From: Octopus vulgaris
Lineage: Eukaryota
Direction of reading: 5' to 3'
NCBI GenBank assembly: GCA_951406725.2
Contig: OX597833.1
Location: 5,332,001-5,396,000 of the forward strand
DNA: 64,000 nt
Shown one piece after another: positions 20,367 to 21,345 of this stretch. Positions within the stretch are counted from its first letter, which is position 1. Every line of letters starts with the position of its first letter. Both the position numbers and the translations under genes were made by a program. Under the pieces are notes generated by a model that worked only from the letters and a program-made list of their open reading frames with translations, was not told where the DNA came from and searched no databases.

Positions 20367-21345
20367 TTGTGTCTAGGGAGAATCATTCTCTTTTGGTGCC
20401 TCATAATTTAACACACTCACCGGTAAAATTTCCACTTATTTCTATTTTAGTTTTCTGAAAATTTTCGTTGCGTCTTGCAACCTTTTCAATAGTTTTGACT
20501 GTCCATTATTCACTCACCGTTCCATTTTGTTTGTGCGCATGTGTATGGGTCAGTGAGTGAGTGTGTGTGTGCCTACACATGCATGTATGTATGTATGTAT
20601 GTATGTATGTATGCATGCATGTATGTATGCATGTATGTATGCATGTATGTATGTATGTATGCATGCATGTATGTATGTATGCATGCATGCATACATGTAT
20701 GTATGTATGTATGTATGTATGTATGCATGTATGTGTGGATACTTGTATGTATGCATTCTGCATTATTCATGTGTTTGCATACACACATGCATACATCCAT
20801 ACATACAGATGTACACACATACATATATACATATATACATATGCACACACACACGCACTGACCCACATACAAGCACACAAACATACACAAAAAGGAACGC
20901 AGTGTAAATAACGGACAGAGTCAAAACTATTGAAAAGTTTACAAGAAGCAACGAAAATTTTACAAACATAAAAATAAGAAATAAGTGGAAATTTTACCGG
21001 TGAGTGTATTAAATTATGAGGCACCAAAAGAGAATGACTCTCCCCAGACACAACAGAATATGCTTCAACACACGAACTCATATAAAGAATCTTGCAAACC
21101 AAATCCAAAAGCAAAATAAAATTTTTATTACTTATTAATAAGCACGAAATTTTGTCAGTGAACAGGTTGCGGTCTTAACGCGACGAAAATATTTTGACAA
21201 ATTAGATTTAAATGTTAAAGTGAATCTAATGGTTTTTGTGTGTTTCTTAAATGGCTTATAAACACCTTCCACACTGCAATTGTTTTCGTTCCAGCACACG
21301 ATTTCAGATCGAGTCACTTGCTATGCAAGTACATCTCCGTAATAC
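20367..21345. mobile_element. Penelope-like pLTR family P3: short inverted copy (20367-20510) and long copy (20906-21345) flanking a microsatellite
   Basis: Inverted homology between 20367-20510 and 20906-21053. Two hammerhead-like motifs in the long copy. Confidence 0.7.
21151..21201 (+). ncRNA. Type I hammerhead ribozyme candidate, G3:C8 variant
   Basis: TTTGTCA-GTGAACA-G-GTTGCG(gtcttaa)CGCGAC-GAAA-ATAT-TT-TGACAAA: 7-bp helix I, 6-bp helix II, palindromic helix III. Confidence 0.65.

What the first reader, a model, noticed from the sequence alone, without database searches (positions are those of the whole stretch)
20367..21345. Tandem hammerheads with U3:A8 and G3:C8 cores in one element (P3)
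Seen: motif 1 is cta-TTGAAAA-G-GTTGC(aagac)GCAAC-GAAA-ATTT (best at 20456-20492 minus and 10345-10380 minus; decayed at 20927-20962). Motif 2, about 220 nt downstream, is TTTGTCA-GTGAACA-G-GTTGCG(7 nt)CGCGAC-GAAA-ATATTT-TGACAAA (21151-21201). The two have related helix II sequences, yet positions 3 and 8 change together (U-A versus G-C); families H, P2 and P4 have C-G. Established: 3:8 is a Watson-Crick pair in the active hammerhead. Three pairings in one window argue for selection on ribozyme function. Activity is inferred, not shown.
Basis: partly seen in the sequence, partly recalled or inferred. Interest (0 to 1): 0.72.

Follow-up and report, generated by a model that had tools for sequence, protein, structure and literature searches.

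The report
Sister hammerheads with swapped core pairs
Two neighbouring copies of related, very common repeats, likely the tail ends of Penelope-like jumping genes, each carry a hammerhead-shaped RNA motif predicted to cut itself; one has the known U-A core pair and the other a G-C pair that I did not find reported in nature, but they are two separate elements side by side, not one element with two ribozymes.

Summary
The claim of one element is wrong. Public reads laid on 20853-21340 show two high-copy repeat units, about 20890-21118 and 21141-21344. In the gap, depth falls to 1-2% of the flanks in DNA runs, both edges run into TA-rich unrelated DNA, and no listed piece crosses it. The two units are homologous sisters over about 210 nt, also 3' of the motif (0 of 1000 shuffles). 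Between their majority forms, 4 of 11 hammerhead pairs change on both sides, including 3:8 (U:A to G:C), and none breaks. This supports past selection on the fold. The layout fits Penelope-like element 3' ends: minimal type I hammerhead, palindromic helix III, inverted copy, alternative 3' ends, (TA)n flanks. No linked RT gene was found. Natural U3:A8 is in print. G3:C8 I found only as a partly active laboratory mutant, but key papers were unreadable. Cleavage is not shown, and RNA reads show no end at 21194. Verdict: new variant of a known kind.

The parts
20367..20580 (-). Family 1 unit, inverted copy, ending at the position equivalent to about 21053; carries the best-kept U3:A8 motif (core 20489-20483, helix II intact, helix I broken)
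   Evidence: 147 of 163 aligned bases identical to the plus arm
20579..20851 (.). (ATGT)n / (CATA)n microsatellite between the two head-to-head arms; a CA-rich run also precedes other copies of family 1
   Evidence: loose end before 20887
20852..21118 (+). Family 1 unit, direct copy; family 3' ends at 21061, 21110 and 21118, followed by (TA)n in other copies
   Evidence: tables 2, 7, 8
20927..20963 (+). Motif 1, decayed copy: U3 = 20930, A8 = 20935; family majority letters at 20938, 20941 and 20963 give a 5-bp helix II and a 3-bp helix I; palindromic linker 20956-20959
21119..21140 (.). AT-rich spacer particular to this locus (depth 1-2% of the flanks in DNA runs)
21141..21344 (+). Family 2 unit, homologous sister of family 1; sharp 5' edge 17 nt before the core, followed by (TA)n at its 3' end
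21151..21201 (+). Motif 2: minimal type I hammerhead fold with G3:C8, 7-bp helix I, 5-bp (majority) or 6-bp (this copy) helix II, palindromic linker 21188-21193, predicted cut after 21194
21289..21333 (+). AC-rich stretch about 100 nt behind the predicted cut, shared with 21064-21107 of family 1
10335..10391 (-). Short family 1 fragment with the U3:A8 motif (core 10377-10371)
9447..9590 (-). Family 1 fragment without the motif, ending at the 21118-equivalent position in (TA)n
8756..8835 (-). More distant relative of the 3' part (70% identity to 21064-21143), no motif

Best explanation
The stretch holds short copies of two separate but homologous high-copy repeat families, likely the 3' ends of Penelope-like retroelements, and each family carries one minimal type I hammerhead fold (U3:A8 in one, G3:C8 in the other) that is predicted to cut only weakly, as a like-with-like dimer or with protein help. 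Shown: the motifs, the two families and their boundaries, their homology, and the compensatory changes. Inferred: family 1 was inserted as a head-to-head pair (inverted truncated copy plus direct copy with a longer tail), and a family 2 copy later landed in the AT-rich DNA at its 3' end, as these elements prefer AT-rich targets and tend to insert beside earlier copies. Inferred: in the parent elements the palindromic linker lets two copies of the same motif form helix III together and cut after position 17. Selection on the parent lineages kept a Watson-Crick pair at 3:8 while its letters changed. The step between U:A and G:C needs two transversions through a mismatch; a lineage could cross it because cleavage was not required for insertion in the one element tested in vitro (PMC11167929). 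The copies at this locus are likely passive remnants.
For: (28,406 and 15,166 contigs laid from DNA runs X2 and X10; 2,723 and 2,467 reads from RNA runs X22 and X23): depth in bin 21125-21141 is 1.3-1.8% of the flanking bins in DNA and 3-9% in RNA (ratios); loose ends behind 21061 and 21118 are (TA)n in the DNA runs, those behind 21110 are AT-rich; loose ends before 21141 are mixed and TA-rich; of the 16 pieces shown (44,107 more not shown) two end at 21118, one starts at 21141, none crosses. Opposite-strand joints 21141 to 21244/21247 appear in DNA and RNA runs. Homology: the part 3' of the motif alone scores z 4.4-4.9 with window letters and 6.5-7.2 with majority letters, 0 of 1000 shuffles in all 8 tests; 20930 aligns to 21158, 20935 to 21163, 21118 to 21344. 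Pairs: 4 of 11 change on both sides (3:8, 10.3:11.3, 2.2:1.2, 2.3:1.3), 7 unchanged, 0 broken; all 10 unpaired core letters are identical. Majority letters repair the helices (21168 C in 88-95% of DNA depth; 20938 G 89-90%; 20941 G 97-98%; 20963 G 95-99%). X2 and X10 list no G>C or G>T place at 5% or more, so G3 is not reverting to C or U there. Literature: extra nucleotide after A9, G10.1:C11.1 and palindromic helix III are the marks of PLE minimal hammerheads (PMC4209133); inverted 5' copies, tails and (TA)n bias (PMC8557442); C3G/G8C partly restores cleavage in a PLE hammerhead that needs protein (PMC11167929).
Against: No RT or GIY-YIG gene is linked to either family: Pfam on 12 long ORFs and 143 shorter frames found only LINE-type domains; two protein searches found nothing; a profile search gave one 69-residue unnamed product that merely overlaps the repeat. 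No genome is held, so full-length parents could not be sought. No Rfam hammerhead model matches, even at E up to 10. RNA reads show no place where many molecules begin or end, lie about equally on both strands, and 85-88% run on into unlike sequence, so there is no sign of a dedicated or cleaved transcript; standard libraries are weak for this. The sharp 5' edge of family 2 is not the variable truncation expected of such elements. Only 40 of 226 variant rows and 15 of 85 joints were shown, so minority cores cannot be excluded. The pair count uses majority letters, not linked haplotypes, and pairs were chosen because they form, so the simulated chance (at most 0.8% for 4 or more double changes) is optimistic. 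Helix I of family 1 is only 3 bp.
Confidence: 0.7

Rival explanations
1. One element carries both hammerheads in tandem and they work together.
For: Same strand, cores 228 nt apart, related sequence. One X2 contig of depth 462 joins 21340 back to 20918, so the families meet elsewhere too (table 5c; orientation not given).
Against: Depth collapses between the units and both edges are loose; none of the 15 joints shown links 21110-21118 to 21141; helix I cross-pairs 1-2 bp; the upstream motif is decayed here.
Confidence: 0.04
2. The fold is kept as a structure (protein-binding or reverse-transcription signal), but the G3:C8 and U3:A8 forms no longer cut at a useful rate.
For: Minimal PLE hammerheads cut very slowly in vitro (PMC4209133); cleavage was dispensable for insertion and no RNA-seq read ended at the site for PAc (PMC11167929); no end at 21194 here; the swap only partly restores activity.
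Against: All 10 unpaired core letters and the A15.1:U16.1 pair are identical between families that differ at about 23% of aligned sites; a 3:8 pair matters in the active fold, so keeping it points to catalysis.
Confidence: 0.17
3. The units are non-autonomous, SINE-like or retrozyme-like elements of about 210-230 nt that borrow an RT, not end fragments of long elements.
For: Unit length is in the range of metazoan retrozyme monomers (PMC7229834); family 2 has a sharp 5' edge; no ORF found; a few joints go backwards within a unit (table 5c).
Against: No tandem arrays in the window; head-to-head inversions and alternative 3' ends are marks of Penelope-like insertion; the motifs are minimal, not canonical.
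Confidence: 0.07
4. G3 is fixed because it is also the G of a 3' splice site (pyrimidine run plus CAG ending at 21158), so splicing would remove helix I and switch the ribozyme off.
For: The sequence before the core reads as an acceptor; an intron ends at helix I in the D. virilis element (PMC4209133).
Against: No GT..AG joint among the 15 of 85 joints shown, and none ending near 21158; reads cover the site without a drop.
Confidence: 0.02

Closest known systems
Minimal type I hammerheads of metazoan Penelope-like elements (Cervera and De la Pena 2014, PMC4209133)
   Same: Extra nucleotide after A9, G10.1:C11.1, short palindromic helix III, short helix I, dispersed single copies and opposite-strand pairs. 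The S. mansoni family 4 row has the same seven core letters as motif 1.
   Different: Of the 56 rows of its Figure S3, 53 have C3, 2 have U3:A8, 1 has U3:G8 and none has G3. Motif 2 has G3:C8 and a 7-bp helix I.
PAc (Poseidon of Anolis carolinensis) hammerhead and its C3G/G8C mutant (Frangieh et al. 2024, PMC11167929)
   Same: Hammerhead about 100-150 nt before alternative 3' ends near an AC-rich stretch; AT-rich targets; G3:C8 partly active.
   Different: There G3:C8 is an engineered mutant and the ORF starts inside the motif; here it is the family majority and no ORF was found.
Natural U3:A8 hammerheads (Perreault et al. 2011, PMC3088659)
   Same: Compensatory change of the 3:8 pair in nature.
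   Different: The passages read name U3:A8 only, not G3:C8.
Hydra-clade PLEs (Craig et al. 2021, PMC8557442)
   Same: Hammerhead near the 3' end, (TA)n insertion bias; an Octopus family is listed.
   Different: All 34 rows of its File S2 have C3:G8; six short words of these motifs were not found in the supplement text (long runs were cut and line breaks can hide words).
Non-LTR retrozymes (PMC7229834; bioRxiv 10.64898/2026.07.22.740005)
   Same: Non-coding units of 170-400 nt with a type I hammerhead, proposed to derive from PLE ends.
   Different: They form tandem arrays with mostly canonical motifs; these units are dispersed or inverted and minimal.

Membership tests
Minimal type I hammerhead (PLE type) | Core U4 G5 A6 N7 A9, G12 A13 A14, A15.1:U16.1, H17 | tested here: met
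   identical in both families
Minimal type I hammerhead (PLE type) | Watson-Crick pair between positions 3 and 8 | tested here: met
   U:A and G:C
Minimal type I hammerhead (PLE type) | C3:G8 letters of the published consensus (U3:A8 as published exception) | tested here: not met
   Motif 2 has G3:C8, so it is filed as a variant; motif 1 matches the published exception
Minimal type I hammerhead (PLE type) | Extra nucleotide after A9 and G10.1:C11.1 | tested here: met
   broken only in the decayed copy at 20938
Minimal type I hammerhead (PLE type) | Palindromic helix III linker that allows dimers | tested here: met
   4-nt and 6-nt palindromes
Minimal type I hammerhead (PLE type) | Helix I closes the motif | tested here: met
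   7 bp in motif 2; 3 bp in motif 1 with majority letters only, 2 bp or fewer in the window copies
Minimal type I hammerhead (PLE type) | Self-cleavage after position 17 | not testable with these tools
   No end pile-up in RNA reads, a weak test
Rfam hammerhead families | Score at the gathering threshold | tested here: not met
Penelope-like element | Linked ORF with telomerase-like RT and GIY-YIG endonuclease | tested here: inconclusive
   None in the window or protein searches; no genome held
Penelope-like element | Inverted truncated copy at the 5' end | tested here: met
   20367-20580 against 20852-21053; opposite-strand joints for family 2
Penelope-like element | Alternative 3' ends (tail) behind the hammerhead | tested here: met
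   21061, 21110, 21118 for family 1; 49-57 nt against 30-40 nt published
Penelope-like element | Insertion into (TA)n or AT-rich DNA | tested here: met
Non-LTR retrozyme | Tandem array of units each with a complete hammerhead | tested here: not met
   (2, 2, 0, 0 records fit two places)

The most novel reading that the evidence does not exclude
Family 2 is a working natural G3:C8 hammerhead fixed in a high-copy animal retroelement family, with a U3:A8 sister, giving a direct natural U:A to G:C exchange of the catalytic 3:8 pair. Published descriptors demand CUGANGA, so such families are missed, and some Penelope-like clades scored as lacking hammerheads may carry swapped cores.
Probability: 0.4. 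Interest if true: 0.55.

Novelty: new variant of a known kind. Interest (0 to 1): 0.38.

Why it matters
It is still open what hammerheads do for Penelope-like elements. Two sister families that kept every core letter and every pair while swapping the 3:8 pair are natural evidence that the active fold was under selection, and they give ready constructs to compare three core pairs. If G3:C8 is common, counts made with CUGANGA descriptors (PMC8557442) are too low. The effect is modest: the swap was predicted by laboratory mutants, U3:A8 is known, and the tandem arrangement that made the finding look striking is an accident of insertion.

Tried and rejected
Own genome: none held. Rfam: no match at gathering level in the window; at E up to 10 in 20300-21400, 85 weak matches, nearly all to the microsatellite, none a hammerhead. 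Pattern scans: metagenome contigs 0 hits (the pattern held this copy's non-majority letter) and 4 hits; viral contigs 3 hits. All 7 lack similarity to the window and look like chance. Coding reading: an open K/R-rich frame runs through motif 1, but the majority forms have stops in all frames and searches found no PLE protein. Mixed dimer of the two motifs: 1-2 bp of helix I. Splice switch: no supporting joint shown. Homology of the C3:G8 motifs to these families: none of 11 sites tested scored clearly above shuffles. A loose-end motif was not found in the window. Literature for natural G3:C8: searches gave only laboratory mutants or nothing; searches found no report on cephalopod hammerheads beyond PMC8557442. 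Lunse et al. 2017 (about small PLE hammerhead variants) and two further papers I recalled were not held; they or their supplements may list G3:C8.

Full report
Setting. The window is repeat-rich animal DNA with 196 tandem-repeat rows and a LINE-type ORF at 14026-16801. It looks to me like a cephalopod, from recall of its repeats; I did not test this. No genome is held for it. The stretch 20890-21345 is held by 20 of 24 listed runs from 13 studies; 19 of them carry five coded organism labels.

Observation. Motif 2 is as described: 7-bp helix I (21151-21157 with 21195-21201), core 21158-21164 with G3 and C8, one extra G, helix II 21166-21171 with 21179-21184, GAAA, a palindromic linker and U17 at 21194. 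A strict descriptor that allows any Watson-Crick 3:8 pair finds it once and never in 200 dinucleotide shuffles. Motif 1 has U3:A8 at 20489 and 10377 on the minus strand and at 20930 on the plus strand. No window copy of motif 1 has an intact helix I, and the plus copy has 2 of 5 helix II pairs broken. The stretch 20367-20580 is an inverted copy of 20852-21053, 147 of 163 bases identical, around a microsatellite. No Rfam family matches at gathering level.

One element or two. I laid 4 of the 24 runs on 20853-21340 at 80% likeness: DNA contigs X2 (organism A) and X10 (organism E), raw RNA reads X22 and X23 (organism E). Both halves are very abundant (28,406 and 15,166 contigs laid; this is not a copy number). 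In bin 21125-21141 depth is 1.3-1.8% of the neighbouring bins in DNA and 3-9% in RNA, and that bin includes the first base of the second unit. Loose ends behind 21061 and 21118 are (TA)n in the DNA runs and those behind 21110 are AT-rich; loose ends before 21141 are mixed TA-rich sequence (agreement 0.44-0.58). Of 16 pieces shown, two stop at 21118, one starts at 21141 and none crosses; 44,107 pieces were not shown. The 9447-9590 copy in the window also stops at the 21118-equivalent and runs into (TA)n. So these are two families that abut here. One contig joins them in the other order (21340 to 20918), so they meet elsewhere as well.

They are sisters. The two units align over about 210 nt, 130 of 169 aligned bases identical with majority letters. 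The part 3' of the motif alone beats all 1000 shuffles in every test (z 4.4-7.2), and majority letters raise the score, as expected for decay from related parents. Position 3 aligns with 3, 8 with 8, and the 3' end 21118 with 21344, where this copy of family 2 also runs into (TA)n. Majority letters repair the helices: 20938, 20941 and 20963 in family 1, 21168 in family 2. The sixth helix II pair of the window's motif 2 is a private change at 21179. Between the majority forms 4 of 11 pairs change on both sides (3:8 U:A to G:C; 10.3:11.3 and 2.2:1.2 U:A to C:G; 2.3:1.3 C:G to U:A), none breaks, and the 10 unpaired core letters are the same. Neutral simulation gives at most 0.8% for four such changes; this is optimistic because the pairs were chosen for forming and the majority letters are not linked haplotypes. 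Within families, positions 3 and 8 are not among the 40 variant rows shown of 226. X2 and X10 list no G>C or G>T place, so G3 is not reverting there at 5% or more. Minority cores in family 1 cannot be excluded.

What they are. The fold matches the minimal type I hammerheads of Penelope-like elements: extra nucleotide after A9, G10.1:C11.1, palindromic helix III (PMC4209133; parts 1-2 of 4 of the text and parts 1-2 of 3 of the supplement read). Inverted 5' copies, tails and (TA)n bias are described for these elements (PMC8557442; passages, supplement searches and part 2 of 59), as is insertion beside earlier copies (PMC6765202; passages). In PAc, reverse transcription starts at two sites in an AC-rich stretch downstream of the hammerhead, which makes the tail (PMC11167929; parts 1-2 of 4 and passages); the two families share an AC-rich stretch about 100 nt behind the predicted cut. 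Against this, I found no linked RT or GIY-YIG frame, so membership is inferred from layout only. The sharp 5' edge of family 2 is unexplained; it may be a true start or the edge of an internal microsatellite.

How it likely works. In a parent transcript two copies of the same motif would pair through the palindrome to form helix III and cut after position 17, slowly, perhaps helped by the element protein as in PAc. A mixed dimer of motifs 1 and 2 needs crossed helix I pairing, which gives only 1-2 bp, so the neighbours here should not cooperate. RNA reads cover both units on both strands about equally, mostly run on into unlike sequence and show no pile-up of ends: this looks like read-through of scattered copies. 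It neither shows nor excludes cleavage; PAc RNA-seq also lacked ends at the site.

Novelty. Natural U3:A8 is reported (PMC3088659, passages; PMC4209133, about 1,300 hits in S. mansoni). G3:C8 appears in what I could read only as a laboratory mutant with partial activity (PMC11167929; PMC8495972, one passage; PMC3884650, passages). It is absent from 56 of 56 rows of Figure S3 of PMC4209133 and 34 of 34 rows of File S2 of PMC8557442. Searches found no natural case. Passages of PMC6155905, PMC7229834 and PMC11014351 and part 1 of 5 of bioRxiv 10.64898/2026.07.22.740005 added nothing on this. Lunse et al. 2017 could not be read and may list it. Unchecked notes of this scan report G3:C8 in phages and, with an extra core nucleotide, in two Penelope-like tails, so the swap is probably recurrent rather than unique.

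Verdict. Observation partly confirmed; interpretation partly supported; new variant of a known kind; interest 0.38.

Noticed in passing
window 37320-37680: Three copies of about 80 nt of a C3:G8 type I hammerhead unit beside (TA)n runs, two of them head to head; helix I and helix III letters closely match the Hydra-2_aMil PLE hammerhead in File S2 of PMC8557442. Like family 2, the unit starts just before helix I.
   Followed up: partly
window 25418+ and 39470+: Two decayed copies of a minimal C3:G8 hammerhead, each broken at a different place.
   Followed up: partly
window 13780-16801+: LINE-type element in two long frames, AP endonuclease at 14026-14874 and reverse transcriptase at 15125-16801.
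   Followed up: no
window 8756-8835 minus: A third, more distant relative of the shared 3' part of both families, without a hammerhead.
   Followed up: partly
joint 21340 to 20918 (run X2, depth 462): Family 2 end joined to family 1 start by 6 letters, possibly a multi-copy mixed arrangement in the other order; orientation not given.
   Followed up: no
window 21198-21229: A further hairpin directly behind helix I of motif 2; several of its positions vary among copies.
   Followed up: no
window 2314-2812: Glycine-rich repeat with open frames of 200-250 codons, possibly an exon.
   Followed up: no
window 6297+, 6522-, 13165-, 13466-, 53391-, 53566+: Repeated CTGANGA words in other repeat families without a recognisable helix II and GAAA behind them.
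   Followed up: partly
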